Source of the DNA: a virus
IMG/VR virus record: IMGVR_UViG_3300045988_183322
Length of the DNA stretch: 64,000 bases
Strand: one strand, 5' to 3'
The notes below the pieces were generated by a model. The model saw only the letters and a list, made by a program, of their open reading frames with translations, had not been told where the DNA came from and made no database searches. Below, piece by piece: positions 2,711 to 53,141 of this stretch. Positions within the stretch are counted from its first letter, which is position 1, and each line of letters begins with the position of its first letter. The position numbers and the translations under genes are program-made.

Positions 2711-2733
2711 AGTTAAGTATATAGGACCCATAA
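2711..2733. repeat. degenerate copy (20/23) of the 23-26-bp cassette repeat, direct orientation
   Basis: agttaagtatataggacccataa vs acttaagtatataggttccataa at 7548-7570; contains its own gtatat...atatac mini-palindrome. Confidence 0.5.
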
Positions 2734-2750
2734 TATACCTGTAAAGCACC

Positions 2751-2912
2751 ATGAATACAAATAACATAATGTTAAGTACAGATGAAGAAATTCGTCCCGA
2801 AGGGAAAGAAGCATTAAATCGTCTTTATAAAAATAATAAAAATCTTTCTCTGGATGATAAGATAAATATGGAACCTATATACTTAAGTAGCCTTGTCGGT
2901 AAAAGACAGTAG
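2751..2912 (+). CDS. small ORF (53 aa) flanked by inverted repeat copies; coding status uncertain
   Basis: ATG at 2751; MNTNNIMLSTDEEIRPEGKEALNRLYKNNKNLSLDDKINMEPIYLSSLVGKRQ; below the ORF-track cutoff. Confidence 0.2.
   Translation: MNTNNIMLSTDEEIRPEGKEALNRLYKNNKNLSLDDKINMEPIYLSSLVGKRQ
2867..2892. repeat. left copy of perfect 26-bp inverted repeat (tatggaacctatatacttaagtagcc)
   Basis: Exact reverse complement of 7546-7571 (ggctacttaagtatataggttccata). Confidence 0.75.
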
Positions 2913-2925
2913 AATAGAGCAATGA

Positions 2926-3861
2926 TTATTTTTTCGTTTCTTCTTCCGTAGAATTTTCTAACAGTCTAATTTGAGAATACTCAATTATCTCTGGAAGATA
3001 AGGCAATGCTTTTTTGTCTTTTTTATCAAAATAACTTATCATCTTTTCCGGAATCCAGACTGTATAAAAATGTTTTCTAAAGTCCGCTAAAAGTCTATTA
3101 GGATAAAGCTTGGCCCGTACAACTCTTCCGTCCTCATAGCGATGATTATAAGTAGGAAAATCATTAGGCTCTTCACCATTTTGACGTAGCCAACGACAAA
3201 ACATTTTGCCTTGAGAAATATCGGGTACAAGATTTTCAGGAAGCTCATAACCTTTGTCTTCTAAGGGAGCAATCAAATTGAATGTAAGTTCGTTCAGTAT
3301 AGAGAAATGCGTCGGAGGTATTTCAGAACGGTTAGCTAAATAACGCCTCAAATGGTAAGGTAATTCTGCTTTTCCTTTTATACTTCCTGTCATCCATTCA
3401 CGAACCCATCTTGAAACTGCAACGGCGAATTTCGGAGAACACCATTGAGCTAGATGAATTGCTACGTCAGGATGAACCCATGTACCTTGTTGCCACTTGT
3501 TTCCTGCCTGTTTTTGAATGATAAGGGTCGTTACGGGAATTCCCGTAACGATAACCAACTCGTTAAGAAACTCTTTTGTATATTTAAGCCTAGAATAGTC
3601 ATTAAACTTTTTCCCTACGGCCTGACACATTGCGGTAGCATTAACGTATCCATCTGCCATTCTTTGGGGAATCAAGTCACCGTCTACTTCATGGGGGATA
3701 ATACGTAAATCGAGTAGGCTTTGGCCGTTTTCTTCCTGTAGTATTTTTCTTGTACGACCAATTTGTTCTTTTTCAGAACTTACAGAATCAGTAATCTTTT
3801 TTGTTACGTCATCAAAACTCGCCTCAATAGGCTGAATCTCTTCCTTATTTTTACGTGCCAT
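2926..3861 (-). CDS. KilA-N domain protein (Bro/KilA-like)
   Basis: N-terminal block DGYVNATAMCQAVGKKFNDYSRLKYTKEFLNEL...GTWVHPDVAIHLAQWCSPKFAVAVSRWVREW is a typical KilA-N/APSES DNA-binding domain; about 40% GC. Confidence 0.7.
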   Translation of the reverse strand: MARKNKEEIQPIEASFDDVTKKITDSVSSEKEQIGRTRKILQEENGQSLLDLRIIPHEVDGDLIPQRMADGYVNATAMCQAVGKKFNDYSRLKYTKEFLNELVIVTGIPVTTLIIQKQAGNKWQQGTWVHPDVAIHLAQWCSPKFAVAVSRWVREWMTGSIKGKAELPYHLRRYLANRSEIPPTHFSILNELTFNLIAPLEDKGYELPENLVPDISQGKMFCRWLRQNGEEPNDFPTYNHRYEDGRVVRAKLYPNRLLADFRKHFYTVWIPEKMISYFDKKDKKALPYLPEIIEYSQIRLLENSTEEETKK

Positions 3862-4870
3862 AATTTATTAATCGGTCAATTCTTTATAGGAAATATGCTT
3901 TCCATACATCATTTCGAAGGTTCTGTCAATGAAATTCATTGTTTCCCAAGACGCTGTATTATGTCTGAAAGCGAATTCTTGAATGTAGCGTTCAAGATGC
4001 TTGGAACTCATAAAATGATAAATGCCGTAATATCCTCGCTTTAGTAAAGCCCAAAAGCTTTCTATGCCGTTAGTATAGGCTTTCTGGTTAACATATTCAC
4101 CTACGGAATGGTTTACGGATAAATGATTGTATTTGTTTAAGCCTCGATAGGATTTGAAATCATCAGTATAGACGGTGGCCCCTACTACAACGTTATCTTC
4201 AATGAAACCATGAAGAGTTTTGGCAGTTACGTCCGGGGCATGCTTAACAACAACTTCTCCATTTCGTTGTTTGATACCAATAACAACCGCTTTCCCAACA
4301 CTGCCCCTGCCTTGCCTAAGTTTCTTCTTAGAATGCTTGTTGCTTTCCTTACCGCCAATGAAAGTTTCATCTACTTCCACTTCTCCATCAAGCTTATCGG
4401 AATCAGAAGATTCCTCGGTTTGTTTATTTAGCCATGCCTCCCTGATTCTCTGTGCCAAAAACCATGCTGATTTTTGCGTGATGCCAAGTTCTTTTGCCAT
4501 TTGAGTAGAAGGAATACCTTTCCGAGAGGAAGTCATCATGTAAATAGCGAGAAGCCATTTCTTAAGAGGAAGCCGCGATTCTTCTAAAACTGTTCCAGTT
4601 CTAACAGAGAAATGTTTTCGGCATTCTTTGCATCTATAAGGCATCGGCTTATGATTTTTGCATTCGGAAACTTTATGGCTTCCACAATGAGGACAGACAA
4701 TTGAGCCATTCCATCTTTTCTTTTCCAAGTAAAGACGGGCGGCTTCTTCATCTGGAAACTTCTGAAAGAAATCGTAGATGCTGACTATCTTCATGATGTT
4801 TACCTCCTTGTTTATCCAAAGAATAGCATAATATCATGGGTAGTCAAGTATTTTTTGGCTAGTTAAGTTC
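3862..4870 (-). mobile_element. IS1595-family (ISXO2-like) insertion sequence; termini not resolved
   Basis: Single transposase ORF. A partial copy of the cassette repeat (ggctagttaagt, 4857-4868) lies in its upstream region. The KilA-N ATG is only 6 nt after the transposase stop, so the right end is ambiguous. Confidence 0.5.
3868..4794 (-). CDS. IS1595-family transposase (ISXO2-like, DDE with N-terminal zinc ribbon)
   Basis: CPHCGSHKV...YRCKECRKHFSVRTGTVLEESRLPLKKWLLAIYMMTSSRKGIPSTQMAKELGITQKSAWFLAQRIREA is the hallmark ISXO2/IS1595 N-terminus; the downstream DDE region is conserved. Confidence 0.85.
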   Translation of the reverse strand: MKIVSIYDFFQKFPDEEAARLYLEKKRWNGSIVCPHCGSHKVSECKNHKPMPYRCKECRKHFSVRTGTVLEESRLPLKKWLLAIYMMTSSRKGIPSTQMAKELGITQKSAWFLAQRIREAWLNKQTEESSDSDKLDGEVEVDETFIGGKESNKHSKKKLRQGRGSVGKAVVIGIKQRNGEVVVKHAPDVTAKTLHGFIEDNVVVGATVYTDDFKSYRGLNKYNHLSVNHSVGEYVNQKAYTNGIESFWALLKRGYYGIYHFMSSKHLERYIQEFAFRHNTASWETMNFIDRTFEMMYGKHISYKELTD

Positions 4871-4908
4871 TCAATGTATTTCTTCATCTAAAGTAAGATA
4901 AAGAAAGG

Positions 4909-5841
4909 TTATTTTCCTTGACGTAATTTTCTGACTTCATTGACCTTCTGTTTGCTGAGAGGCCGACTTTCCAAAGAGAGATTAGCCATGAAGCCTTCCC
5001 AATAGTGGGTAAACTCTCTTGTATATCGGAAATCCACCCTTTTTGCCTCGTTCTTAAGTGTCGCTTCCCCCTTGAAGCAGTTAATATTCTTTTTGTCATT
5101 CACGACTTTCAGAGGGGTATCAGGAAGCAACATTTTCGTAATTACCAAAGCTTCTTCCTTGCTAATGCAAAACTCTTTTACTCCCTTGCGAATCTCAAGT
5201 CTGAAGCAAATATTCGATTTCGGAGTGAACAGGGCTTCTACCTTAAAAAATTCCCAGTCATCATTGCCCCAATGAAGCTTTGTAAGTCCTTCCTCTGTCT
5301 TGGATTTTTTCCCTCCCGGAAATTGAGCTTCTATTTTTTCGAGAGTCTCGCCTAATAGAGGAGAAGCCGGGAGTTTGATATCTTTTTCCGTGATGGTTTT
5401 CCCTATTTGCTGGGTTTTCAATAGAAGGTCATTATCTTTGACGGTAACTTTTTTCTCTTTTACAGAATAGTAGGTCTCAATGAACTTCGATTGATTTCTA
5501 GAACGCCCCTTGAACCCGTCGTCTTTCAATGAATATTGGAATTTGAAATCACCAGCAATATGCTCCTTTAGTAGATTCAAAGCTCCCGCTCTATTAGAAC
5601 AGTTGAAGAACTCCATTTTGAAGCATTTGTTCTGGAAGGTGAAATAGGCCTTTAGTTCCACTCCTTCCTTTTTCCATGTGAGGGTTTTGAAATCATGAGT
5701 GCCTCCGGCTTTTCCTTCCTTCCCTTCTCCCCACTTCTCATTCATTTTCTCAGGGGAATCTCCCAAATCGGCCTTAGCAGAAGGAAAAGCTGATAACAAA
5801 AGAGTTATCAAAATTGCGATATGATATGTTATTTTTTTCAT
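4909..5841 (-). CDS. secreted protein of unknown function (signal peptide, no lipobox Cys)
   Basis: N-terminus MKKITYHIAILITLLLSAFPSAKA reads as a signal peptide; Lys-rich mature part; about 40% GC. Confidence 0.5.
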   Translation of the reverse strand: MKKITYHIAILITLLLSAFPSAKADLGDSPEKMNEKWGEGKEGKAGGTHDFKTLTWKKEGVELKAYFTFQNKCFKMEFFNCSNRAGALNLLKEHIAGDFKFQYSLKDDGFKGRSRNQSKFIETYYSVKEKKVTVKDNDLLLKTQQIGKTITEKDIKLPASPLLGETLEKIEAQFPGGKKSKTEEGLTKLHWGNDDWEFFKVEALFTPKSNICFRLEIRKGVKEFCISKEEALVITKMLLPDTPLKVVNDKKNINCFKGEATLKNEAKRVDFRYTREFTHYWEGFMANLSLESRPLSKQKVNEVRKLRQGK

Positions 5842-5926
5842 GCGTATAGCGGAGTTGTTTCTTTCGAATAAAAAACGCCCCTTCTTCCAAAATCAGAAAA
5901 AGGGACGTTCAGTCATGCTTTGAGAA

Positions 5927-6565
5927 TTAAAAATCCCAGCTAAATCCTGCCTCAATGGCATGCCATACAAGAGCATTTGAACCCGCAATCATACACTCGT
6001 ACCCTAGCACGAATTTTACATGTTCGCTGATTGCAAAATTGAATCCTGCATTAGCAGTAAACATTCCCACAATCTGGCTTACCTTCGCTCCTTTGGTCAA
6101 ATTAAAGCTTCCCCGGCTCTCTATACTCGTAAAGGCTATGCCTCCTTTCACGCCAAGATAGAAAGAAGCGGCGTCAGACATGGGAAGGTAGAGAGTATAT
6201 CCACCCAAAACAGGAATCAGTTTTCTCTTCTGATGAAGGGTTCCATAGTAGGTAGCTTCAAAATTATCACTCCCTGTCATATAACCTGACATTAATGAAA
6301 ATTGATGAATAACAGATTCAGTAGCTACGTTTTGATGAATGTCCAAGAGAGCACCCGCTAAGTTCGGTTGGTACAATTCAGAAGTCCAAGCATAAACCCC
6401 TTTTACTCCTATACCAAAACCGGATTGTTCGTAAGCTTGACTGTAAGACCTCGATTTCTTCTGAGAACTACCAGCCCAATAGTATTCCCAAGGATTATCA
6501 TAAGCGTGTGCGGTACATGAGAGGCCCAGAAGCCCCAAACTGGCTATGATGGTTTTCGTGTTCAT
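5927..6565 (-). CDS. small outer-membrane beta-barrel protein (Lom/Ail/OmpX-like moron)
   Basis: Signal peptide MNTKTIIASLGLLGLSCTAHA, alternating amphipathic strands, C-terminal GFSWDF with terminal Phe typical of OMP barrels; 212 aa; about 42% GC. Confidence 0.6.
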   Translation of the reverse strand: MNTKTIIASLGLLGLSCTAHAYDNPWEYYWAGSSQKKSRSYSQAYEQSGFGIGVKGVYAWTSELYQPNLAGALLDIHQNVATESVIHQFSLMSGYMTGSDNFEATYYGTLHQKRKLIPVLGGYTLYLPMSDAASFYLGVKGGIAFTSIESRGSFNLTKGAKVSQIVGMFTANAGFNFAISEHVKFVLGYECMIAGSNALVWHAIEAGFSWDF

Positions 6566-6720
6566 GATGTTTTTAGGTCAATATGTTCTCTGAATACGGC
6601 CTCACAATAGAAGAATCCATATCTTCATTGAAGGCTAATGTCATTCATTGTGGTTAAATTAGACATTCATTGAGCGATTGTCAATCATGCTATGCTCAAA
6701 ATCTTTGATTCATCATCACA

Positions 6721-7095
6721 ATGAGCAAAGTTCCTTACATGGAAGAACCTCTTGTGAATATTTTAGAGTTAGGACGTTGGATGACGGAAAATCAGATAAG
6801 CCGAGCAACATTGGCTTCGGCTATTGGCATGAACAGAAGTGCCATTGATAACTATTTTGTCCGTAAAAAGCTTCCTAGGCACGCTCAAATCCTCATTAAA
6901 AGATTCATGGACGGTCAGGAAGCCGTCTTTGCCTCAAATGAGATAACTTCCCTCATTACTATCCCTCTTAGCAACCGAGTAATTAATCTTGCCATGAAAG
7001 CCGCCGTTGAAAAAAACGTCACGATGGAAGAGTTTGTGGGGTGGGCTGTTGAAAGGACGGCAAAGAAAATTGTGGAGGGAAGCGGGTGTAATTAG
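6721..7095 (+). CDS. two-domain transcriptional regulator: N-terminal HTH plus C-terminal ribbon-helix-helix (Arc/CopG-like)
   Basis: HTH LASAIGMNRSAIDNYF. RHH fold ITIPLSNRVINLAMKAAVEKNVTMEEFVGWAVERTAKKI (beta strand plus two helices). Paralog of 51807-52271. Confidence 0.55.
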   Translation: MSKVPYMEEPLVNILELGRWMTENQISRATLASAIGMNRSAIDNYFVRKKLPRHAQILIKRFMDGQEAVFASNEITSLITIPLSNRVINLAMKAAVEKNVTMEEFVGWAVERTAKKIVEGSGCN

Positions 7096-7175
7096 AAAGA
7101 AAGGGGGGCTAATTTCTATGTCTGCAGTTAAGCTTTTTAGATTGAATCACTCTAAAAGCTAGTATAGAAGAACGC

Positions 7176-7451
7176 ATGACTATTACTGCGGCGTTTATGC
7201 AAAAACAAGGGATAAATTTCGTAGTTATCCCTGTTAAATATAGGGCGATGGATACTCCTGAAAAAGCAAAAAGAACTATTGAGGGATTTCGTTCAGCGAT
7301 AGCAAATTTTTCAGAGCTTCCTCTGATTTTAGCCACTCAGAATTCACATGGAGACTCTGTATATTGGGGAGAACCGCGCGTGGTAAGGATGCTTCGGAAC
7401 ATGTCTGTTTCTGAATTTTCTTGGAAGGAGTACAAACTCGAACGTAGATAA
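7176..7451 (+). CDS. hypothetical protein
   Basis: ORF only. Confidence 0.25.
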   Translation: MTITAAFMQKQGINFVVIPVKYRAMDTPEKAKRTIEGFRSAIANFSELPLILATQNSHGDSVYWGEPRVVRMLRNMSVSEFSWKEYKLERR

Positions 7452-7545
7452 AATCATCTTCTTTACATTCAACCATAGCAATTCCCAAATCTTTATCTCC
7501 ATCTATATTACACCAAAAGGTGCATAAGCATATCTCATGATGCGC

Positions 7546-7571
7546 GGCTACTTAAGTATATAGGTTCCATA
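7546..7571. repeat. right copy of perfect 26-bp inverted repeat; itself part of a 10-bp-stem hairpin (7551-7582)
   Basis: ggctacttaagtatataggttccata; cttaagtatat...atatacttaa flanks the aggttccataa loop. Confidence 0.75.
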
Positions 7572-7742
7572 AATATACTTAAAGAACGTCTTTATTCTGA
7601 CTTTACTTATTGTTTCTTTGATGGAGATGCGTCATTAACACCTGATAAAGCGAAAGAGAGAATTGTCGCAAATTTAGAATTTGATTATTTAGTTAAAGAA
7701 GGATTGGCAGCAGTTGTAGAATTATAATAAGATGCCTTTAGT

Positions 7743-8237
7743 ATGCAATCTATCATGTCCAATAATGCGTATAGAACTTATGTTGAAGTTATGAAGGACG
7801 CACCAAAGAATGCGTATTTTTATAATGATTCTACAGACGATGCAAAAATTGTTTTAGCTCAATTCATCAATGCGGCCACATTTTCTGTTCGTATTTTTGC
7901 TCGAAGCTTGAACCATGAAATTTATGCTGATAAGGGTGTATTTTTAGCTATTAAACGCGCTCTCAAAAAAGGCGTCCGTTTTACAGTAATGATTCAGGCT
8001 GAACAAGCAGATGCATTAAGTTCTAAGCTCATTAATTTATTTTGTAAGTTTAAGGACTCGGTTGATTATCAAACAAAAAAGGGAGTAGGTTTATCCGCTA
8101 ATGTTTGTACTGTCGATGACAGAATGTTTCGATATGAGTATGCTCCTGATAAACGCAAAGCTAAAGCTTCTTGGAATGATAGAGATACAGTAAAGAAACT
8201 CAATCTTGCCTTGGATAATATTAAGCAAGCTATTTAA
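7743..8237 (+). CDS. hypothetical protein
   Basis: 164-aa ORF, no recognised motif. Confidence 0.4.
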   Translation: MQSIMSNNAYRTYVEVMKDAPKNAYFYNDSTDDAKIVLAQFINAATFSVRIFARSLNHEIYADKGVFLAIKRALKKGVRFTVMIQAEQADALSSKLINLFCKFKDSVDYQTKKGVGLSANVCTVDDRMFRYEYAPDKRKAKASWNDRDTVKKLNLALDNIKQAI

Positions 8238-8294
8238 TATCATAAATAACCCGGATTCTTCCATTCATCATCCTGATAGGAGAAAATTGCCCGC

Positions 8295-8498
8295 ATGGAC
8301 GAGAAACGCCCGCTGGATATTCAGACTTTGGGAAGGTGGTTAGAAGAGAACAAAGTGTCTCGCACCGAACTCGCTTTACCATCGGAAGCAATCATTTTCA
8401 ACTGTACGATTTTTTCGTACAGTTGACTAAACCCTTCTTCATGATAAAGAATTTTCTTATTGATAAGAACTCTCTTGGCATTCTTCTCCACTAGGTGG
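8295..8498 (+). pseudogene. frameshifted remnant of an HTH-domain regulator gene (paralog of the 6721 N-terminus), GC-rich
   Basis: ATG 8295 gives MDEKRPLDIQTLGRWLEENKVSRTELAL, matching EPLVNILELGRWMTENQISRATLAS of 6721-7095. After a -1 shift near 8380 the frame continues IGSNHFQLYDFFVQLTKPFFMIKNFLID, matching AIGMNRSAIDNYFVRKKLPRHAQILIKRFMD. 8290-8400 is about 55% GC vs 30% for the genome. Confidence 0.45.
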
Positions 8499-11698: not shown

Positions 11699-12564
11699 TA
11701 TACTATAGTTTTACTTCCTAAAAAATCTATTCCAAATAGTAAATAATCTGAATCAGAAATACTCGTGCTCAAACTATTTAATTTAGAATTCTTCAAAAAA
11801 TAGTCATTATTTTCATCAAATTTTTCTGATTGTATTCTCACTCCTAAAATTTCATTCCGCTGATTTAAATACTTTTCAATTAAATCTATATTTCCTCTAA
11901 ATGGGAAATCTGAAAGAGAAGAAGTATATCCAGATGCCGAAAATTGTTGATTTATTAGTGGAGATTCAAGAACAATCATTTTGTCTTTCCAATTTATCGG
12001 CCATCTTATAAGAACATTTTTCCTTTCAGAAAAATTCATAGTAAAAATTGCTTCATCATCAAATATATCTAAGTATGGGATTATCCTATCCATCTTAGGT
12101 ATTTCCTTCTCTTCTGTTTCCGAGTTTCTTTTAAGAATTGCCGTCCATTTCTCTGGGGCATAAACCTTTTTTCCCACGAATGATGCTGATAATAATGGAA
12201 TTTCTCCCGGGTTCAATGATAAAGAATACTCAGTCATTACTACATCAAAATTAGCCCCATTCACATTCATTAGTGTTTCGCCTTGGATTAAATCATCAAA
12301 AGATGCTTCTACTAATGCGGCGGTATGTTGACCTATGAAATAATCCAGCAATTTTTCATTGAATGTTAATGGTTTTTCTATAGAAAAGCTTATAGTTGGC
12401 GCCCCATTTGGAATAGTTTGTGATAATCCTCCTAATAAAGCACCTGTTGAATTAGAAAAGTCATTAGTCATCGATATGACATTAACATCTTTCCAAAAAT
12501 CGGAAATTTCCCCATTTTCTTCCCCAATGCAAAATATTATATTATTGATATTTAACGCATTCAT
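11698..12564 (-). CDS. distal tail protein (Dit-like position)
   Basis: Immediately downstream of the tape measure with start/stop overlap; size 288 aa. Confidence 0.4.
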   Translation of the reverse strand: MNALNINNIIFCIGEENGEISDFWKDVNVISMTNDFSNSTGALLGGLSQTIPNGAPTISFSIEKPLTFNEKLLDYFIGQHTAALVEASFDDLIQGETLMNVNGANFDVVMTEYSLSLNPGEIPLLSASFVGKKVYAPEKWTAILKRNSETEEKEIPKMDRIIPYLDIFDDEAIFTMNFSERKNVLIRWPINWKDKMIVLESPLINQQFSASGYTSSLSDFPFRGNIDLIEKYLNQRNEILGVRIQSEKFDENNDYFLKNSKLNSLSTSISDSDYLLFGIDFLGSKTIV

Positions 12565-40512: not shown

Positions 40513-41175
40513 ATGGCTTATAATATCTTTATCCAAAAACAAAAAAACAAATATTGTGTAGTTTTTCCTAAATGTGGATGGACTTTATTCCATACTCATT
40601 GCAGGGGGCAAGCAAATTTTATATATGTCAATAGCAATCAATTTCCTGCGCAAAAGGTGCACATAGACGCTTTTTTTATCAGACATCCAGTAGATAGAAT
40701 TATTTCAGGATTTAAAAATAAGTATTTAGATAATCCAGATAAAGATATATGGACAAGAGACTGGCTAATAAAAATAATGAATTTACAGACGAAAGAGCAA
40801 ATTAAGAATATATCATTCGACCAATTTTTAGATAGATTACAAGAATTAGTTTTTTTTGGTCAAAATGATTTCAAGACTGTTTTTTTTAGAAGTAATGCTC
40901 CTGATAATTATTGGGACACCCATTTCTGTCCATTATCTTACCAATTAAGATTCTTTCCACAAAAAGAAATGAACTTTTTTGATATTAGAAAAGATTTAGA
41001 TTATCTAGATTATTTAGGAATAAATTACTCTATTAAACATAATTCGTCTTCTCATATTGCTTTTGAAGCAACACCTGAACAAAAAAAAAGAATAGAAGAA
41101 ATTTACAAAGATGATATGATATTATATAAAAAATATGAAAAAGATAGAGCTAATCGGCAAATAATAAGCTCATAA
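40513..41175 (+). CDS. sulfotransferase (PAPS-dependent)
   Basis: 5'-PSB-like VVFPKCGWTLF (PKSGTTW) and 3'-PB-like RHPVDRIISGF (RNPKDVAVSYY) motifs. Confidence 0.6.
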   Translation: MAYNIFIQKQKNKYCVVFPKCGWTLFHTHCRGQANFIYVNSNQFPAQKVHIDAFFIRHPVDRIISGFKNKYLDNPDKDIWTRDWLIKIMNLQTKEQIKNISFDQFLDRLQELVFFGQNDFKTVFFRSNAPDNYWDTHFCPLSYQLRFFPQKEMNFFDIRKDLDYLDYLGINYSIKHNSSSHIAFEATPEQKKRIEEIYKDDMILYKKYEKDRANRQIISS

Positions 41176-41194
41176 AATTTAAGAATCCATAACA

Positions 41195-47494: not shown

Positions 47495-48319
<825 letters not shown>

Positions 48320-48639: not shown

Positions 48640-48685
48640 ATAATAGAAATGGGTCTTATATACTTAACTTAGAAACAACTTGAAA

Positions 48686-49417
48686 TTAGTTAAGCCAATC
48701 ATTATCGAATGATATTTTTGATAACAGCTCTTTTCCCTGAAATGTAATCATCATTAAACCCATAGGTAATTGGGATTTCTCATCCTGATATTGAGATACA
48801 TATATGCTCTCTCCATTTTCGGTAAGTACCCTTTCTGTGTAAACGCGCCTATATAGCAATCCTAAAGACTCCAAATGTTCAATATAAAAATGAACATCTA
48901 AATTTTTATCATTAGTTTTACAGGAAAATAGAGTAGAATTTTTATTTTCGAATTCTCTACGCTTATCAGGATTAGATTCTAGAAAATATCTAAGCACAAT
49001 AATTTCAGCATCATTTACCTGCCGCAATAAATTGAGAAAATAATTCTCATTCTGAATCTCCAATTGCGATTTCGAGATTCCTTGAGCAACAAGAGAAGCT
49101 AGATAGGCTCGACGTTCAAAAGAAGATGAATTTGCCGCTTGCTGAATAGATTCTTCCATTAAACGGCTTTTAGCTTCATCTTCTAGCATGATTTTATCTA
49201 TAGTAGTCTCTAACCTTATCAGTTTTTTATTTAGCTGTTTAAGAAATTCTGCAATCCTATCTATCCTTTGCCTAGGAATAATATCTGTAACAAATTCAGC
49301 GATGATTGGTCCGAGGCAAGGAATAACTGAAACACCGCATTTCACAGAACGAGCAACGTAATCTCTTACTGTGTTTCCAAACTCGTTTTCATCAATAGAA
49401 TTTTCTTTTTCAAGCAT
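48686..49417 (-). CDS. hypothetical protein
   Basis: ORF only. Confidence 0.3.
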   Translation of the reverse strand: MLEKENSIDENEFGNTVRDYVARSVKCGVSVIPCLGPIIAEFVTDIIPRQRIDRIAEFLKQLNKKLIRLETTIDKIMLEDEAKSRLMEESIQQAANSSSFERRAYLASLVAQGISKSQLEIQNENYFLNLLRQVNDAEIIVLRYFLESNPDKRREFENKNSTLFSCKTNDKNLDVHFYIEHLESLGLLYRRVYTERVLTENGESIYVSQYQDEKSQLPMGLMMITFQGKELLSKISFDNDWLN

Positions 49418-49705
49418 TTATTAATTTTATGATTTTATATAGTTGAGTTCGAGTGATTCCGTAAAATCTAATATACTATCTTAAAAACAGCTGCATTTAA
49501 TCCTTTATTTCATTTAAATCAGTATCTTCAATAGAGGAAAAATAGTCATAATGGTCTTTTGCATATATAACCCAAAAATCAAATTTTGATGTTACTTTTT
49601 TTAATATATTTTTGATTTTAGAATTTTTTTTATTTAAAAAAAATCGGAACTATATACTTTAGTCTTGTCTCCCTACTTGGTAGGGGAACAAAAAAGCTCC
49701 TTCCA

Positions 49706-49734
49706 AAGAAGGAACTTTTTTATTCAGAAAAGTC
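49706..49734. terminator. bidirectional intrinsic terminator (A-tract, hairpin, T-tract)
   Basis: aaaaaagc-tccttc-caaa-gaagga-ac-ttttttatt; preceded by a second hairpin ccctac-ttg-gtaggg. Confidence 0.55.
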
Positions 49735-49745
49735 TATACTCTTAT

Positions 49746-50729
49746 TCAGGAATTAGTCTCTTTAATGCTATTACAAGAGATTGTACACACTATTTGATAA
49801 CCCTCTTTTGGACAAGGAGCAGTTATAGTCAAAGGTTGTGTAATTGAACTATCAGATATATTATCAAAATTATTTTGATTAACTTCCTTTTTATCAGAAA
49901 TCAAAGAATGGGTATTCGAGTGGCACATGTTACAATTACCTTTATTACATGTATCAGTTTGATTACAAAGAGGACAAGCAGGGTTATGCGCACACAAGGA
50001 TTTAAGCCATTTTTTCAATCTTAAAAGAAAATTAAATTTAAAATCAAATTTAAATATAAATTTTCCTATAGATATAAACACGCTAAACAATAAGCACGGC
50101 AGAATAATAATTAATTCCACAATAATTAGAGGAATCAATGATATAAACAATTTTGCATATAGGATAACTCCTAAAAAATAATTGCCTTTACTGTTTTCTT
50201 TATAAGAAGAAGGAAGAGTGTTGATTTTTTCTTTATGTAAATTTAATAGTGCTTCCGTCTCAAATTTAGATATCCAATTTAAATATATAATTCCTATAGC
50301 TAAGCCCCAAGAAACTATCAGCAATACAAACCATATAGCAAAAGGAATCCAAGCTAAATATGTCCACTCAATTTCTAAGGAAGATAATTTTTTTTCGTAA
50401 ATTTGGCAATAACAATGGATAATAAAAGAGACAACTAACCCTAATGAAATAAATTTCATTAGAAATTTAAATCCCAACAAAATATTATCCCTAAATAAAT
50501 TATGGAAATAATAGATAATTGGTTTTCTAAAAAATTGACATATTCTATTTTGTTTTAAAGTATATAGATTTTGAGTATAAATTTTTCCCGAATCTTTATC
50601 TTGAAGGTCCGAACAAGTAATGGTTGCTTTTTTTATAAAAGAGAAAAAACCATCATGCCATGTCGTTAAAACGCTAATAGCTAATGCAGTTTGAGCAATA
50701 ATCAAACTATAATCCCACTCTTGAGACAT
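49746..50729 (-). CDS. polytopic membrane protein with Cys-rich C-terminal tail
   Basis: Multiple hydrophobic segments; C-terminal CAHNPACPLCNQTDTCNKGNCNMCHSNTHS. Confidence 0.4.
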   Translation of the reverse strand: MSQEWDYSLIIAQTALAISVLTTWHDGFFSFIKKATITCSDLQDKDSGKIYTQNLYTLKQNRICQFFRKPIIYYFHNLFRDNILLGFKFLMKFISLGLVVSFIIHCYCQIYEKKLSSLEIEWTYLAWIPFAIWFVLLIVSWGLAIGIIYLNWISKFETEALLNLHKEKINTLPSSYKENSKGNYFLGVILYAKLFISLIPLIIVELIIILPCLLFSVFISIGKFIFKFDFKFNFLLRLKKWLKSLCAHNPACPLCNQTDTCNKGNCNMCHSNTHSLISDKKEVNQNNFDNISDSSITQPLTITAPCPKEGYQIVCTISCNSIKETNS

Positions 50730-50744
50730 TGTGAAGAAAAAAAG

Positions 50745-51272
50745 TTATTGACAACACACTTTATTAAATTCTTCTTCCCAAGCAGAAGCTACATCAGGGC
50801 AATGAATACCAGCAAATGCCTTTCTATTAGGCTTCCCATCAAGAATAGGAGTAGGCTCTATGCGATAATGTCTTTTATCTACAATGAGAATATTTGCAGA
50901 AATATTACTTACATTTTCAAAATTATTGTATGAAGCTTTTCCATTTTTTAGATATTCCTCAATTTTACTAAAAAATTTATTCTCTCCGGATGAAGTATCT
51001 ACAAAATTCCTTGTTATAACATCAACCCGAGCTCCATTTTTAATGGCAGCATCAAGAGCATTCAAAACTCCTTGTGTACACCATACATCTTGACCTAAAT
51101 GATTACATAAAATGCACACTCTAGATTTTGCTCTTTTAATAAATTCTTCATCAATAATAATAGTATGGTCCGGACCTGGGTTTTTGAACCCATCAACTCT
51201 TATATTATTATCAAGAGCTACAATTATACCAACTCTATACTTATCCTGTTCGTTTTTAGGTTCTTTGAACAT
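50745..51272 (-). CDS. hypothetical protein
   Basis: 175-aa ORF, no confident motif. Confidence 0.35.
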   Translation of the reverse strand: MFKEPKNEQDKYRVGIIVALDNNIRVDGFKNPGPDHTIIIDEEFIKRAKSRVCILCNHLGQDVWCTQGVLNALDAAIKNGARVDVITRNFVDTSSGENKFFSKIEEYLKNGKASYNNFENVSNISANILIVDKRHYRIEPTPILDGKPNRKAFAGIHCPDVASAWEEEFNKVCCQ

Positions 51273-51563
51273 GATTAGAATTTTGGATTAATGTATGAAA
51301 TCATATAGAATGAAAATGTGACCGCAAAATTATGTATAGCATTCAAATCTGGTCAAGCTTTTCCTGTTATTTTTATGACGTTTAGAATGTTTGCTCTCTA
51401 AAAAATTACACTCTTTATCAATTTCATTTGATAGCATTTTGTTCCTGTTATTCCTGTTGGATTTGACTCTTATTGAATGCTATCCGTTCATCTGATGCCA
51501 GAGATATGTTCTTATGTTTCAAATGGCTTTCTAACAAATAATAAAAATCGTTTCTAAGACCGC

Positions 51564-51731
51564 TTATTGTAGGGACTTTCTCCCTCCTAATCTCTCTTCC
51601 ACCGCCCTCAAAATCCATTCCTCCACGGACAATCTTTCTTTGACAGCCCTCTTGACTACCTCGTTCAGGGTAGAATTTTTCATTCGAACGGCAATTTGAA
51701 ATTCCAATTCCGAAGGATAATCAGCACTCAT
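51564..51731 (-). CDS. standalone ribbon-helix-helix (Arc/CopG-like) protein, 55 aa, sub-threshold ORF in a locally GC-rich stretch
   Basis: MSADYPSELEFQIAVRMKNSTLNEVVKRAVKERLSVEEWILRAVEERLGGRKSLQ. About 13/27 identical to the RHH domain of 51807-52271 (NKILNLAVRAAVQKDMSVEEFVVWATE). Not in ORF track (<60 aa). Confidence 0.4.
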   Translation of the reverse strand: MSADYPSELEFQIAVRMKNSTLNEVVKRAVKERLSVEEWILRAVEERLGGRKSLQ

Positions 51732-51806
51732 TAGATGACGCAAGGTGTCCTACACATTGAGAACCCCTAGATACCTAGATAGCTACTCATTTTCAAGCCT
51801 TTCTTT

Positions 51807-52271
51807 CTAATTACACTTATTCCCTTCCACAATTCTTTTCGCCGCCCCTTCTGTGGCCCAAACCACAAACTCTTCAACGCTCATATCCTTCTGAACCGCC
51901 GCTCGAACGGCCAAATTGAGAATTTTGTTAGGGATAGGAACGCTCAGTTGAGAAACAAAGTCATTGTTGGAAGCAGGTTCCCGTCCTTTCATATAGCGGG
52001 AAATCAGTATCTGGACGTGCTTCGGAATACTGCCCTTGGAGAAATAGTTATCAATGGTGCTTCTGGCTAGACCTAGGGAGGAAGCAAGTTCAAGACGATT
52101 TATGCTATTGTATATTTCTAAAAGGAATGGAGAAGCTTCGTCGAATATTTTGTTTTTTTTAATGCCAACGCATTTACTCTTTAATAAATGTTCAGCATAA
52201 TTAAGTATTTTTGCTCCCATAATATCCGGTTTTTCTAGATATTGAGCATATTTTTCAATAATATTTTCCAT
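51807..52271 (-). CDS. two-domain HTH plus RHH transcriptional regulator (paralog of 6721-7095)
   Basis: LASSLGLARSTIDNYF HTH and LSVPIPNKILNLAVRAAVQKDMSVEEFVVWATEGAAKRI RHH. About 50% identity to 6721-7095 over the C-terminal 110 aa. Confidence 0.55.
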   Translation of the reverse strand: MENIIEKYAQYLEKPDIMGAKILNYAEHLLKSKCVGIKKNKIFDEASPFLLEIYNSINRLELASSLGLARSTIDNYFSKGSIPKHVQILISRYMKGREPASNNDFVSQLSVPIPNKILNLAVRAAVQKDMSVEEFVVWATEGAAKRIVEGNKCN

Positions 52272-52272
52272 C

Positions 52273-52710
52273 TTAAAGTCTACTAATTAGTTCAAAAAAA
52301 TACTTTTTCCTTCCTTCCAATTCTTTCTTTTGAGCCTTTTTTATAAGTTCATTTAAATAAATATCTCCATCCTCGGTCAAAAAAGCTTGCGCGACAAAAC
52401 TCGAAGAGAAGCTCGGTTCTTTTGAGACTACATGCAAAGTAGGGATTGGTTGCGGCTCATTTGAAGTGAGTTTCACCGTATCAAAATGCACAGAAAAAGG
52501 CAGGGAGTCATGAGAGATAGAATAAACTACTTGCCGCATGTTATAGCTCTTTCTACTAATTTTTACTCCCGTGATTCTTTTCAGCAATGTTTCCGCATAA
52601 TAAAAAGCACCAATACTTTCAGTATCATCGGCAACGTCTAAAATAAATTTTCTGTATTTATCGAATAGCTCTTGTTTCTTAAAAGATATTTCGTCTTCTG
52701 GTTCTGGCAT
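52273..52710 (-). CDS. hypothetical protein (operon with regulator)
   Basis: ORF; its stop abuts the regulator start. Confidence 0.3.
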   Translation of the reverse strand: MPEPEDEISFKKQELFDKYRKFILDVADDTESIGAFYYAETLLKRITGVKISRKSYNMRQVVYSISHDSLPFSVHFDTVKLTSNEPQPIPTLHVVSKEPSFSSSFVAQAFLTEDGDIYLNELIKKAQKKELEGRKKYFFELISRL

Positions 52711-52737
52711 AAAATTTCGAGTATCGAAAGAAGATTC

Positions 52738-53103
52738 CTAACGTGATTTCATTATTTCTATCTCAGCAAGAAAACTTTCCGTCATTTCTCGCTCTTCTTT
52801 TTTAGCCAGCAATCTCATTTTATCATTAATATGAAGTAGTTCGTGGCTGTTCAATTCTAAAAAATATAAGTCTTTAAAAAGAAATGCTCGCGCGTTATTG
52901 TTATCTTCTAAAATAATGGAAAATTCTCCATCCCACGAATTAGATGCGAGAGCAGAGAATCGAAAATCCTTGTTCCTTATTACGTCAAAATTATTTCCTT
53001 CTTCGTCTCTAATCAGACTTGATAGAATTTCTGTGCCATTAGCATCTAACAATTCATTAAGATAGTAAAGAGCGTCTTCTCTTTTGATTTCATGTTTTTC
53101 CAT
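52738..53103 (-). CDS. hypothetical protein (first gene of regulator operon)
   Basis: ORF whose ATG lies 9 nt downstream of a consensus -10. Confidence 0.3.
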   Translation of the reverse strand: MEKHEIKREDALYYLNELLDANGTEILSSLIRDEEGNNFDVIRNKDFRFSALASNSWDGEFSIILEDNNNARAFLFKDLYFLELNSHELLHINDKMRLLAKKEEREMTESFLAEIEIMKSR

Positions 53104-53112
53104 ATGAGCTAT

Positions 53113-53141
53113 ATGATAAGTGATTCAAAATCGTTTGTCAA
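53113..53141 (-). promoter_or_regulatory. sigma70-type promoter (TTGACA-17-TATCAT) giving a near-leaderless transcript for 53103<-52738
   Basis: Minus-strand reading ttgacaaacgattttgaatcacttatcat then atagctcatATG. Confidence 0.4.

What the first reader, a model, noticed from the sequence alone, without database searches (positions are those of the whole stretch)
6721..7095. Multi-copy HTH+RHH regulator family: two full-length paralogs, a standalone RHH ORF and a GC-rich frameshifted HTH remnant
6721-7095 (+) and 51807-52271 (-) are about 50% identical two-domain regulators (HTH ...RSAIDNYF plus Arc/CopG-like RHH). Immediately downstream of the second, a sub-threshold 55-aa ORF (51564-51731, -) encodes only the RHH domain (EVVKRAVKERLSVEEWILRAVEE vs NLAVRAAVQKDMSVEEFVVWATE). 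At 8295-8498 (+) a frameshifted remnant matches the HTH half (LGRWLEENKVSRTELA vs LGRWMTENQISRATLA; after the shift, LYDFFVQLTKPFFMIKNFLID vs IDNYFVRKKLPRHAQILIKRFMD). The remnant and the RHH mini-gene sit in locally GC-rich DNA (about 50-55%). This looks like an immunity or anti-repressor style circuit (compare P22 Arc/Mnt) that has been duplicated, split and partly degraded. The fragments could also be domain-swap spare parts.
Basis: seen in the sequence. Interest (0 to 1): 0.65.

Follow-up and report, generated by a model that had tools for sequence, protein, structure and literature searches.

The report
Host transposon regulator genes inside a phage
The four related "regulator" sequences are not a duplicated phage immunity switch: they are whole and broken copies of a small Akkermansia-specific DNA-binding protein gene, brought into this gut phage by host cargo transposons that also carry anti-phage defence genes.

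Summary
The family relationship is real. regA (6721-7095) and regB (51807-52271) are 50% identical over 101 aa. The 55-aa ORF (51564-51731) is a true homologue of their C-terminal ribbon-helix-helix (RHH) domain. 8295-8375 is a true N-terminal fragment. The supposed frameshifted second half of that remnant is spurious: it is the translation of a hairpin palindrome.

None of this arose by duplication within the phage. regA lies in an intact 4.7-kb IS1595-family cargo transposon (2870-7568). It has inverted repeats and an 8-bp target duplication, and sister phages show the empty site.

regB is a chimera: 63 codons of a phage gene are fused, at a 9-nt microhomology, to codons 28-118 of an Akkermansia regulator gene (X). 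That fusion begins a 3.4-kb transposon relic (48651-52091), 99.94% identical to a chromosomal transposon.

The RHH mini-gene is the 3' end of a third paralogue (Z), cut off when transposon modules recombined.

The 8240-8376 fragment is an older, separate acquisition of an X-type 5' end. It is also present in sister phages that lack the regB fusion.

Among reference genomes the family was found only in Akkermansia, usually paired divergently with an outer-membrane beta-barrel gene. Subtype-specific repeats lie between the two genes.

Likely role (inferred): local repressor of that divergent promoter region.

The parts
2870..7568 (.). Tn-A: an intact IS1595-family cargo transposon of 4,699 bp. 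It is flanked by the 8-bp target-site duplication ATAAATAT at 2862-2869 and 7569-7576.
   Evidence: Inverted repeats at 2862-2892 and 7546-7576 (31 nt, 94% complementary) with the duplication on both sides. Sister phages L017-L021 and L047 join window 2869 directly to 7569 with an 8-nt overlap, which is the empty site; L016 carries the element. GC is 38-41% against 28-30% in the flanks.
2926..3861 (-). Tn-A cargo: a BstA-type abortive-infection protein (KilA-N domain plus BstA C-terminal domain).
   Evidence: Pfam KilA-N 4.7e-26. PADLOC BstA 6e-19. BstA_C is on record for the identical gene in L016.
3868..4794 (-). Tn-A transposase of the IS1595 family.
   Evidence: DDE_Tnp_IS1595 2e-43 and Zn_ribbon_IS1595 4e-11. 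It is 45% identical to the transposases of the L001 and L010 elements.
4909..5841 (-). Tn-A cargo: a 310-aa protein with a hydrophobic N-terminus suggesting secretion, function unknown.
   Evidence: No significant Pfam family. A 71%-identical homologue lies next to the beta-barrel/regulator pair in an Akkermansia MAG, L040.
5927..6565 (-). Small outer-membrane beta-barrel gene, transcribed divergently from regA. This is the conserved partner of the regulator family.
   Evidence: OMP_b-brl 6e-7. The divergent beta-barrel/regulator pair recurs in L001, L002, L010-L015, L022 and L040-L046.
6566..6720 (.). Divergent control region. It holds three direct TTCATTG repeats (about 6624, 6644 and 6666) and an inverted copy, giving TCATTGA-N7-TCAATCA at 6667-6687. 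This is the candidate operator.
   Evidence: Sequence and alignment. The 22-mer 6666-6687 is unique in the window. It overlaps the only promoter-like site that faces regA, 6660-6688. The motif type tracks the regulator subtype across 15 loci.
6721..7095 (+). regA: an intact 124-aa regulator with a Cro/XRE-type HTH domain and an RHH domain.
   Evidence: It is 90% identical in DNA (606 nt) to the element in L001/L002. pN/pS against L001 is 0.16.
7176..7451 (+). Tn-A cargo downstream of regA: a 91-aa protein of unknown function.
   Evidence: PHROG 23950, 7.9e-14, no known function.
8240..8376 (+). R: an orphan 5' fragment of an X-type regulator gene. It comprises about 55 nt of leader with the ribosome-binding-site palindrome TCCTGATAGGA, then codons 1-27. 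The open frame runs on to 8426 (43 aa).
   Evidence: 98.4% identical to L010 9959-10082 and 95.7% to L046 7054-7191. 27/27 aa identical to P0047. HMM E 2.8e-5. Present in empty-site phages (L017, L047) and, in IMG/VR contigs, alongside an intact gene Y.
8398..8426 (.). Perfect 12-bp-stem hairpin between two convergent genes. It is the source of the false 'second half' of the remnant.
   Evidence: Folding energy -20.4 kcal/mol, z -7.1. It reads QLYDFFVQL on one strand and QLYEKIVQL on the other.
48651..52091 (-). Tn-B relic: the right-hand 3.4 kb of an IS1595-family cargo transposon. It runs from inside regulator gene X to the right-end inverted repeat (48651-48667).
   Evidence: 99.94% identical over 3,445 nt to L046 7182-10626. 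In L046 the complete 5.4-kb element (5219-10622) has both inverted repeats and the duplication TTTTTTTG. The inverted repeat abuts phage DNA exactly. Sister phages L008, L009, L035 and L037 carry 1.8 kb of other DNA between window 52083 and 48653.
48686..49417 (-). Tn-B cargo: a 243-aa Abi_alpha-like protein.
   Evidence: Pfam Abi_alpha 5.4e-6, 27 bits against a cut-off of 29.
49746..50729 (-). Tn-B cargo: a 327-aa protein with long hydrophobic stretches, probably a membrane protein.
   Evidence: No family hit. It always follows PLD175 in L027, L029 and L044-L046.
50745..51272 (-). Tn-B cargo: a PLD-like 175-aa protein (PLD175).
   Evidence: Weak PLDc_2, DrmC and Mko hits. The exact protein is in 432 blocks of the collection; 125 of those have their longest contig at 0.2-1 Mb. 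28% identical to the phage gene 7743-8237.
51564..51731 (-). Standalone RHH gene (55 aa). It is the 3' 40% of a third regulator paralogue, Z, and starts at Z's internal Met.
   Evidence: It corresponds to residues 64-118 of the 118-aa Z protein in L044, differing at 4 of 55 residues (my count from the printed sequences). DNA homology to L044 begins at window 51743. 22 homologous clusters. pN/pS 0.23 against L010. HMM E 2e-6.
51807..52271 (-). regB: a chimeric 154-aa ORF. Codons 1-63 (52271-52083) come from phage gene Y. Codons 64-154 (52082-51807) are X codons 28-118. The junction lies in the microhomology GAACTYGCT (52083-52091).
   Evidence: AlphaFold2 model: the Y-derived helix 48-56 sits where HTH helix 1 would be, at pLDDT 74-83, while residues 1-45 are below 50. 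The exact protein occurs on only 3 contigs.
52273..53141 (-). Phage operon that now drives regB: p145 (52273-52710), p121 (52738-53103) and a strong promoter-like site (53113-53141).
   Evidence: ORFs. Promoter-like site matching 11 of 12 positions. The same genes precede intact Y in L007 and L008.
2713..2729 (+). Solo transposon-end-like inverted repeat, possibly the scar of a further insertion.
   Evidence: Perfect match to the inverted-repeat pattern. The pattern has 6 matches in the window against 0.7 expected. This copy is also present in empty-site phages.

Best explanation
The sequences belong to a small family of two-domain DNA-binding proteins found, among reference genomes, only in Akkermansia. 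Each has an N-terminal Cro/XRE-type HTH domain and a C-terminal RHH domain. The genes travel as passengers on IS1595-family cargo transposons, almost always divergently paired with a small outer-membrane beta-barrel gene.

This phage has received such DNA at least three separate times.

1. Tn-A (2870-7568) is a complete, recently inserted transposon that is polymorphic in the phage population. It carries regA, the beta-barrel gene, a gene for a probably secreted protein, the transposase and a BstA-type defence gene.
2. Tn-B inserted at the target ATTTCTAT next to phage gene Y. A deletion between GAACTTGCT in Y and GAACTCGCT in regulator gene X then removed about 1.8 kb of phage DNA and the left 2 kb of the transposon. 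This created the in-frame Y(1-63)::X(28-118) chimera regB. It left X's 3' part, the RHH mini-gene and three cargo genes (PLD-like, probable membrane protein, Abi_alpha-like) under the phage p121-p145 promoter.
3. The 137-nt fragment R (8240-8376) is an older acquisition of an X-type 5' end. It is present in every sister phage that could be checked at this position.

The RHH mini-gene was itself made earlier, in Akkermansia. At that time an OMP-X module recombined into a third paralogue, Z, and cut off Z's HTH domain.

Inferred function: the intact regulators bind as RHH-mediated dimers or oligomers to subtype-specific repeats in the roughly 155-bp divergent region. For regA these are three TTCATTG repeats plus an inverted copy overlapping its promoter. 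Binding would repress the beta-barrel-side operon and their own operon. The standalone RHH could pair with them. regB may keep X's recognition helix, but its activity is unknown.
For: Transposon anatomy (shown):
- Inverted repeats and the 8-bp duplication of Tn-A.
- Empty site in L017-L021 and L047.
- Transposase domains.
- The same type of element with different duplications in two chromosomal contexts, L001/L002.
- Complete Tn-B in L046 with both inverted repeats and a duplication, 99.94% identical to window 52091-48647.
- The Tn-B inverted repeat abuts phage DNA exactly at 48651.

Chimera and deletion (shown):
- Protein identities of both halves of regB.
- Sister phages are 99.9% identical up to window 52083 and again from 48653, so the flanks are collinear.
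- Base-level junction.

R is older and separate (shown):
- Junction A and intact Y occur on the same IMG/VR contigs.
- Junction B is absent from IMG/VR.
- R differs from L046 at 6 of 138 nt, against 2 of 3,445 nt for the relic.

RHH mini-gene is the 3' end of Z (shown).

Host range: all six genome-contig loci found in a collection of 185,579 species are Akkermansia. Where a source names the family's proteins, the name is Akkermansia.

Folds.

Operator inference: the upstream motif co-varies with regulator subtype. Five of five regA-type loci have 3-5 TCATTG and no TCCTAAT. Five of five X-type loci have the reverse. Z-type loci have a third motif. The regA-type motifs are kept even in chromosomal copies without a transposon (L004, L038, L039).

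Purifying selection: pN/pS 0.09-0.23.
Against: - DNA binding, operator identity, oligomeric state and regulatory targets are all inferred. No expression or binding data exist.
- The RHH assignment rests on weak sequence signals. The monomer AlphaFold2 model shows the putative beta-strand as coil.
- The intermediate (phage with a full Tn-B) was not found, so 'transposition then deletion' is the most economical path, not an observed one.
- R ends, and regB's X part begins, within the same 10 nt of X although the events are separate. My estimate of the chance probability is about 1%. This is unexplained.
- The contigs that carry the complete Tn-B (L044-L046) are not themselves named Akkermansia. 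That assignment is by gene content and by the family's distribution.
Confidence: 0.8

Rival explanations
1. One reading: a phage lysis-lysogeny immunity or anti-repressor circuit (P22 Arc/Mnt-like) that duplicated within the phage and then split and decayed.
For: The folds are those of phage repressors: a Cro-type HTH and an RHH with a weak PHROG Arc-like hit at E 0.047. regB sits in an early-region operon next to a divergent gene block.
Against: Both loci are inside transposons bounded by inverted repeats, and their nearest relatives are in Akkermansia genomes or on bacterial chromosomal contigs. Tn-A is absent from most sister phages. regB exists on only 3 contigs, whereas sister phages carry the unrelated intact gene Y there. 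No antirepressor or integrase was found next to either locus. X-type operator motifs are not enriched in the phage, and the regA-type 22-mer operator occurs only at 6666-6687, in regA's own control region.
Confidence: 0.04
2. The regulators chiefly control the variable downstream cargo, that is defence or toxin-like genes such as PLD-like/membrane/Abi_alpha or p91. They would act like antitoxin-type or defence-island repressors, not as regulators of the beta-barrel gene.
For: Each regulator heads a rightward operon of cargo. The RHH hits are to antitoxin families: TacA1, PSK_trans_fac, and JGI's 'HicB family' name. The cargo includes BstA, Abi_alpha-like and PLD-like proteins.
Against: The cargo differs between elements that share the same regulator subtype, whereas the beta-barrel partner and the intergenic repeats are constant. 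Chromosomal copies sit in polysaccharide or acyltransferase clusters with no toxin-like neighbour. The two roles are not mutually exclusive, because one operator region could serve both divergent promoters.
Confidence: 0.2
3. The regulators are transposition regulators, that is repressors of transposase expression or transposition co-factors.
For: They are a constant feature of this transposon group. In Tn-A the transposase lies in the leftward operon that starts at the regA-proximal promoter region.
Against: In L001, L010, L022 and L046 the transposase is on the other side of the beta-barrel gene and convergent with it, so it is not in that operon. Close homologues with the same upstream motifs occur in chromosomal loci without any transposase (L004, L024, L038, L039).
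Confidence: 0.08
4. The two halves of X (R and regB's C-terminal part) are products of one event: a 43.7-kb inversion or a reciprocal exchange between X at locus A and Y at locus B.
For: The fragments lie on opposite strands and meet within the same 10 nt, GAACTCGCTT. The composite is identical to the L010 allele across the junction.
Against: Sister phages with intact Y are collinear with the window on both sides of the cassette. R co-occurs with intact Y. R differs from the allele that supplied regB's C-terminal part at 6 of 138 nt, against 2 of 3,445 nt. The DNA after junction A is not Y's C-terminal part and resembles nothing in the transposons.
Confidence: 0.03

Closest known systems
IS1595-family insertion sequences and transposons with passenger genes (Siguier, Gagnevin & Chandler 2009, as cited in PMC8101967)
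   Same: A transposase with the DDE_Tnp_IS1595 domain and an N-terminal zinc ribbon, terminal inverted repeats of about 23-31 bp, and 8-bp target duplications. PMC8101967 states that members are usually flanked by 8-bp duplications.
   Different: These elements are 3.8-5.4 kb and carry 4-6 passenger genes, whereas the family description cited gives a single transposase gene. The passengers form a conserved beta-barrel/regulator core plus variable cargo that includes anti-phage defence genes. Two copies sit in a phage genome. A commentary on prokaryote transposable elements reports that phages tolerate such insertions less well than plasmids (abstract of PMC3429520).
Cro/CI-type HTH repressors (Xfaso-1 Cro 3bd1; Pfam Phage_CI_repr, YdaS/P22_Cro, HTH_3)
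   Same: The N-terminal four-helix HTH domain. It is 28% identical to Xfaso-1 Cro, with profile E 9e-4 and Foldseek probability 0.99. The invariant recognition-helix motif is RS.IDNYF.
   Different: It is fused to a C-terminal RHH domain. It is not located at a phage switch region, and no partner repressor is present.
Ribbon-helix-helix repressors (CopG, Arc/Mnt of P22, TacA/HicB-type antitoxin DNA-binding domains)
   Same: A C-terminal beta-alpha-alpha pattern that aligns in register with CopG (E 3e-4) and Arc (E 0.012). Weak hits to TacA1, NikA-like and PSK_trans_fac, which are RHH families by my knowledge of them. Like Arc and CopG, the mini-gene product is a protein of about 50 aa consisting only of the RHH domain.
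   Different: In the full-length proteins the RHH domain follows an HTH domain, so it may serve mainly for dimerisation. There is no ant gene, plasmid copy-number locus or toxin partner. The standalone RHH arose by truncation of a two-domain gene.
BstA and Abi-type defence genes carried by prophages and other mobile elements (BstA: Owen et al. 2021, cited from my own knowledge)
   Same: Tn-A encodes a protein with KilA-N and BstA_C domains. Tn-B encodes an Abi_alpha-like protein.
   Different: Here the defence genes ride on a DDE transposon that has jumped from the host chromosome into a phage genome. Any self-immunity element (the 'aba' of BstA systems) was not sought.

Membership tests
IS1595-family transposable element | Transposase with the DDE_Tnp_IS1595 catalytic domain and an N-terminal zinc ribbon | tested here: met
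   ORF 3868-4794(-): DDE_Tnp_IS1595 2e-43 and Zn_ribbon_IS1595 4e-11. The Tn-B donor L046 has the same domains.
IS1595-family transposable element | Terminal inverted repeats and an 8-bp target-site duplication | tested here: met
   Tn-A: inverted repeats at 2870-2892 and 7546-7568, duplication ATAAATAT. L001 has TTCTGTTA, L002 has TAATTTTT and L046 has TTTTTTTG. Eight base pairs is the family norm (PMC8101967).
IS1595-family transposable element | Evidence of mobility: empty site, or the same element in different contexts | tested here: met
   Empty site in L017-L021 and L047. The L001/L002 element is 99.7% identical in two different chromosomal contexts.
Cro/CI (XRE-like) HTH DNA-binding domain | Helical bundle with an HTH motif, recognisable by sequence or structure | tested here: met
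   AlphaFold2 model with pLDDT 91-93 over residues 11-60 and four helices. Foldseek probability 0.99 to Cro, SinR, HigA and C.Kpn2I. PDB profile hit to 3bd1 at E 9e-4. Pfam Phage_CI_repr scores 21.6 bits for regB, just under the cut-off of 22. Remote relatives exceed the HTH_3 cut-off.
Cro/CI (XRE-like) HTH DNA-binding domain | Sequence-specific operator binding | not testable with these tools
   The only evidence is indirect: upstream repeats co-vary with regulator subtype.
Ribbon-helix-helix (Arc/MetJ/CopG) superfamily | A beta-alpha-alpha unit of about 45 aa, with sequence similarity in register to known members | tested here: met
Helices 85-97 and 102-120 are preceded by the conserved segment SLITIPL. 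Remote relative P0108 hits TacA1 at its cut-off. Direct Pfam and PDB profile searches with the C-domain were weak or empty.
Ribbon-helix-helix (Arc/MetJ/CopG) superfamily | Intertwined dimer whose paired beta-strands enter the major groove | not testable with these tools
   Only monomer prediction was available, and the strand appears as coil in that model.
P22 immI-type Arc/Mnt/Ant circuit | RHH repressors flanking and controlling an antirepressor gene in a temperate phage | tested here: not met
   The neighbours are a transposase, a beta-barrel gene, and BstA-type, PLD-like and Abi_alpha-like genes. No antirepressor hit was found. Both loci lie inside transposons.
Type II toxin-antitoxin antitoxin (HicB/TacA/HigA-like) | Adjacent cognate toxin gene in a two-gene operon | tested here: inconclusive
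   No HicA, TacT or HigB-type toxin was detected next to regA, X or the RHH gene. The downstream cargo is variable. p91 and the 327-aa protein are unannotated.
BstA abortive-infection defence (for the Tn-A cargo gene 2926-3861) | N-terminal KilA-N domain plus a BstA C-terminal domain | tested here: met
   KilA-N 4.7e-26. PADLOC BstA 6e-19 over residues 167-284. PF26567 BstA_C on record in L016. Function and any anti-BstA element were not tested.

The most novel reading that the evidence does not exclude
The regulator gene may be the preferred recombination joint of these mosaic transposons. Z was cut at codon 60 to make the RHH gene. X was cut at codon 27 twice, independently, to make R and regB.

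The phage may also exploit the captured pieces. The chimeric regB keeps X's recognition helix and is expressed from a phage promoter. It could repress the resident host transposons' beta-barrel gene, a possible receptor, or their defence cargo. The intact Tn-A would give the phage a BstA-type weapon against competing phages.

Under this reading, host cargo transposons act as exchangeable exclusion and counter-defence modules for an Akkermansia phage. The coincidence of breakpoints would reflect selection or a hot spot, not chance.
Probability: 0.12. Interest if true: 0.7.

Novelty: new member of a known kind. Interest (0 to 1): 0.45.

Why it matters
1. Host link. The result gives unusually direct evidence for the host of an abundant uncultured gut phage. 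One phage protein is found in 165 blocks of the public collection. The phage carries 3.4 kb that is 99.94% identical to a transposon on a bacterial chromosomal contig, and that transposon's regulator family was found only in Akkermansia among reference genomes. It also carries a second transposon of the same group that is polymorphic among sister phages.

2. Defence genes on the move. DDE cargo transposons carrying BstA-type, Abi_alpha-like and PLD-like genes have moved from a host chromosome into a phage. This is a route by which phages can acquire anti-phage weapons. It is of interest because transposable elements are reported to be poorly tolerated in phage genomes.

3. A new regulator family. 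It defines an uncharacterised HTH-RHH regulator family: 46 hits at E 0.001 or better among 1.84 billion representative proteins. It has an obvious testable operator and a conserved outer-membrane partner gene in a bacterium of medical interest.

4. A caution for annotation. Repressor-like paralogues in a phage were transposon passengers and recombination debris, not an immunity circuit.

Tried and rejected
- Megablast of both loci against 50,697 phage records gave no match.
- Inversion or reciprocal-exchange model for the split X gene: rejected. The flanks are collinear in L008, L035 and L037. R co-occurs with intact Y. The alleles differ.
- Idea that the minus strand 8503-8384 encodes a paralogue of Y's N-terminus (tblastn E 0.01): rejected. 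Protein shuffle p is 0.11 and DNA alignment p is 0.7. Part of that alignment was chance overlap with the reverse complement of R.
- The remnant's 'second half': no HMM hit, and shuffle p 0.1 against X.
- Search for similarity between the 84 nt after junction A (8377-8460) and any of the transposons or the replaced phage segment: nothing significant.
- Search for extra X-type or regA-type operators in the window: none beyond chance.
- Search for intact X in viral contigs: none.
- Search for junction A in 185,579 reference genomes, to test for a prophage: none.
- Search for the intermediate (phage target ATTTCTAT followed by the left inverted repeat) in IMG/VR and JGI metagenomes: 29 hits, all unrelated.
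- PDB profile search with the C-domain alone: no RHH hit.
- Literature searches on 'Akkermansia phage' and on IS1595 passenger genes turned up, among the titles and abstracts listed, no description of this phage or these elements.
Full report
WHAT THE WINDOW IS

The window is a low-GC (about 32%) tailed-phage genome segment. It encodes a tape-measure protein (12564-20249), a large terminase (32778-35990), DNA methyltransferases and an SSB. It has no close relative among deposited phage records. It is common in metagenomes: the exact product of 7743-8237 occurs in 165 blocks of the collection, mostly on contigs of about 73 kb.

CHECKING THE OBSERVATION

regA (6721-7095, +) and regB (51807-52271, -) align at 50% identity over 101 residues, E 2e-38.

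I built a profile from both proteins plus 42 database homologues and ran it against every stop-to-stop segment of the window in six frames (2,456 segments). It found exactly four significant matches:
- regA;
- regB;
- the small ORF at 51567-51749 (E 2e-6, C-terminal domain only);
- 8280-8423(+) (E 2.8e-5, first 30 profile positions only).

So all four sequences are related. It gets no profile hit, and a shuffle test against its true parent protein gives p = 0.1. The stretch is a perfect 12-bp-stem hairpin (8398-8426, -20.4 kcal/mol, z = -7). Its palindromic DNA reads QLYDFFVQL on one strand and QLYEKIVQL on the other.

Local GC is 42-48%, not 50-55%.

DOMAIN ARCHITECTURE

An AlphaFold2 model of regA (pLDDT 84) has four helices in residues 14-71, a linker, and two helices at 85-120.

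The N-domain matches Cro/XRE-type HTH proteins:
- Foldseek probability 0.99, rmsd 2-3 A over about 55 residues;
- PDB profile hit to Xfaso-1 Cro, E 9e-4.

The C-domain evidence is weaker but consistent:
- it gives weak hits to the RHH families TacA1, NikA-like and PSK_trans_fac.

A full HMMER scan of 1.84 billion representative proteins found only 46 relatives at E 0.001 or better. Among the distant two-domain ones, P0108 passes both the HTH_3 and TacA1 thresholds, and P0100 hits Phage_CI_repr plus NikA-like. The HTH+RHH reading is therefore supported. Dimer formation and DNA binding are not tested.

WHERE THE GENES COME FROM

Homologues of regA (75-97% identical) and of regB's C-terminal part (up to 100%) are hypothetical proteins. 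Where a source names them, the name is Akkermansia. A pattern scan of one genome for each of 185,579 species returned six loci, all Akkermansia.

In bacterial chromosomal contigs the genes lie in one of two settings:
- cell-envelope gene clusters with glycosyltransferases, Acyl_transf_3 or GtrA/UbiA;
- a recurring mobile unit made of an IS1595 transposase, a small beta-barrel gene on the opposite strand, the regulator, and variable downstream genes.

That unit is a real transposon. In L001 and L002 a 3.8-kb segment, 99.7% identical, sits in two different chromosomal contexts. Each copy is bounded by inverted repeats (GGGT.TTATATACTT...) and its own 8-bp duplication.

LOCUS A: AN INTACT TRANSPOSON

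The same kind of inverted repeat occurs in the window at 2870-2892 and 7546-7568, with ATAAATAT duplicated on both sides.

Sister phages L017-L021 and L047 join window 2869 directly to 7569 with an 8-nt overlap, which is the empty site. L016 carries the element.

Tn-A (4,699 bp, GC 38-41%) carries:
- a KilA-N/BstA-type abortive-infection gene;
- the IS1595 transposase;
- a 310-aa, probably secreted, protein;
- the beta-barrel gene;
- regA;
- a 91-aa ORF.

So regA is a transposon passenger that entered this phage recently.

LOCUS B: A TRANSPOSON RELIC AND A CHIMERIC GENE

regB's first 63 residues are 100% identical to a phage protein, Y (P0060/P0061). Y continues differently after ...RLELA. The remaining 91 residues of regB are residues 28-118 of the Akkermansia 118-aa protein X.

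Sister phages L008, L009, L035 and L037 are up to 99.9% identical to the window as far as position 52083, and again from 48653. In between they carry 1.8 kb holding Y's C-terminal part and four small genes. The window's replacement segment ends in a transposon inverted repeat that abuts phage DNA exactly (...AAGTATATAAGACCC|ATTTCTAT, outer end at 48651).

A 373-kb bacterial contig (L046) holds the complete 5.4-kb element with both inverted repeats and the duplication TTTTTTTG. Its gene order is transposase, beta-barrel gene, X, RHH gene, PLD-like 175 aa, 327 aa, and 243 aa Abi_alpha-like. Its right-hand 3,445 nt are 99.94% identical to window 52091-48647.

At the junction, Y reads GAACTTGCT|GTG and X reads GAACTCGCT|TCC. 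The window reads GAACTTGCT|TCC.

The simplest history is transposition of Tn-B next to Y, followed by a microhomology deletion. That deletion removed Y's 3' part, four phage genes and the transposon's left 2 kb. It placed the X remainder in frame behind Y's first 63 codons under the phage p121-p145 promoter, where a promoter-like site at 53141-53113 matches 11 of 12 positions.

This chimera is rare: 3 contigs. An AlphaFold2 model places a Y-derived helix (48-56) where HTH helix 1 would be, at moderate confidence. Whether it works is unknown.

THE RHH MINI-GENE

Its homologues form 22 clusters, 48-96 aa long; those read (16) almost all start MSADYPSELE... or a close variant.

L044 carries a full-length third paralogue, Z (118 aa), directly upstream of the same PLD-like gene. 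The mini-gene product corresponds to Z residues 64-118 and starts at Z's internal Met. DNA homology between the window and L044 begins at window 51743.

So the standalone RHH arose, already in Akkermansia, when an OMP-X module recombined into Z. pN/pS is 0.23 against the L010 copy (9 non-synonymous and 11 synonymous differences). This argues that it is still coding in at least some lineages, although the L010 copy has a shifted start.

THE N-TERMINAL REMNANT (R)

Window 8240-8376 equals the leader plus the first 27 codons of X: 98.4% identical to L010 and 27/27 aa identical. It starts immediately after the stop codon of the phage PLD-like gene 7743-8237 and ends at GAACTCGCTT.

I first suspected one event had split X into R and regB. 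Three results refute that:
- the flanks of locus B are collinear in phages with intact Y;
- two IMG/VR phage contigs contain both junction A and intact Y, whereas junction B is absent from IMG/VR;
- R differs from the allele that supplied regB's C-terminal part at 6 of 138 nt, while the relic differs at 2 of 3,445 nt.

R is therefore an older, separate acquisition, present in every sister phage that could be checked at this position.

It remains unexplained why R ends, and regB's X part begins, within the same 10 nt. By my estimate the chance of this is about 1%. One idea is selection. A full Tn-B would form a 138-nt inverted repeat with R, 43 kb away. Only deletions that remove all of that homology but keep HTH helices 2-3 would be both stable and functional. 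A hot spot or plain chance cannot be excluded. No intermediate was found.

HOW THE REGULATORS PROBABLY WORK (INFERRED)

The constant partner is the divergently transcribed beta-barrel gene, and the cargo varies.

The roughly 155-bp region between them carries repeats specific to each regulator subtype:
- regA-type loci (5 of 5, including chromosomal copies without a transposon) have 3-5 TCATTG motifs. In the window there are three direct TTCATTG repeats about two helical turns apart (roughly 6624, 6644, 6666), plus an inverted copy forming TCATTGA-N7-TCAATCA at 6667-6687. This overlaps the promoter-like site 6660-6688.
- X-type loci (5 of 5) have none of these. They have TCCTAATAGGA-type palindromes, one of which overlaps the ribosome-binding site.
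- Z-type loci have a third motif.

This co-variation is what is expected of an autoregulatory repressor and its operator. I therefore propose that RHH-mediated dimers or oligomers bind these repeats through the HTH domain. Binding would control both divergent promoters.

Alternatives are regulation mainly of the defence-like cargo, or of transposition. Both are less consistent with the variable cargo and with the transposase-free chromosomal copies.

The standalone RHH could heterodimerise with full-length proteins.

COMPARISON WITH KNOWN SYSTEMS AND VERDICT

The elements meet the defining features of the IS1595 family: transposase domains, inverted repeats and 8-bp duplications (PMC8101967). 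They are unusually cargo-rich.

The proteins combine two well-known repressor folds in a rarely seen order. They do not meet the defining feature of the P22 Arc/Mnt/Ant circuit, and no toxin partner was found.

The finding is thus real as a sequence observation, but its interpretation changes. It is not a decayed phage immunity circuit. It is three independent imports of host transposon DNA, one intact and two broken by recombination inside the regulator gene.

I rate it a new member of known kinds (an IS1595 cargo transposon and an HTH/RHH regulator). It has moderate interest because of the host link, the defence cargo moving into a phage, and the testable operator.

Noticed in passing
window 40513-43172 (+): The phage encodes a sulfation module: a sulfotransferase (Sulfotransfer_2, 7.5e-9), a CysD-like PAPS_reduct protein (2e-36), a CysN-like GTPase and an APS kinase (9.5e-28). 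Together these could make PAPS and use it. Nearby, 47495-48319(-) is a GT11 fucosyltransferase-like gene.
   Followed up: partly
window 2926-3861 (-), inside Tn-A: A BstA-type abortive-infection gene (KilA-N 4.7e-26, PADLOC BstA 6e-19) is carried by a transposon sitting in a phage genome. Any cognate anti-BstA self-immunity element was not looked for.
   Followed up: partly
window 7743-8237 (+) and 50745-51272 (-): The phage's own PLD-like 164-aa gene (exact product in 165 blocks) is a distant paralogue of the transposon-borne PLD-like 175-aa gene: 28% identity over 116 aa, E 1e-9. Both give only weak PLDc_2, DUF7931 or DrmC hits. The phage copy is immediately followed by the X-type fragment R.
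   Followed up: partly
window 8367-8376 and 52082-52091: Two independent recombination events have breakpoints in the same 10 nt (GAACTCGCTT) of regulator gene X. With the cut in Z that made the RHH gene, three rearrangement joints fall inside regulator genes of this family.
   Followed up: partly
window 2713-2729 (+): A solo transposon-end-like sequence (TTAAGTATATAGGACCC) lies 140 nt from Tn-A's left end. It is also present in phages that lack Tn-A and resembles the left inverted repeat of the L001-type element. It may be the scar of yet another insertion at this hot spot.
   Followed up: partly
window 2751-2869 plus 7569-7727 (approximate window positions, converted from L017): The Tn-A insertion splits an 89-aa phage ORF that is intact in the empty-site phages (L017 9716-9985). 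Its function is unknown.
   Followed up: no
window 32778-35990 (-): The large terminase ORF is 1,070 aa. Its N-terminal part gives endonuclease-like and helicase-like PHROG hits ahead of the terminase region, so it may be a fusion or contain an inserted domain.
   Followed up: no
window 8457-10739 (-): A 760-aa ORF ends next to the hairpin and follows the tail genes. It has no family hit, apart from a faint DUF285 mark on the identical gene in L021. It is a likely receptor-binding protein.
   Followed up: no
L004/L003/L005 10001-10378; L033 6001-6291; L024 10001-10354: Chromosomal members of the regulator family in Akkermansia sit beside Acyl_transf_3, glycosyltransferase or GtrA/UbiA genes. 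This hints at a role in controlling cell-surface modification.
   Followed up: no
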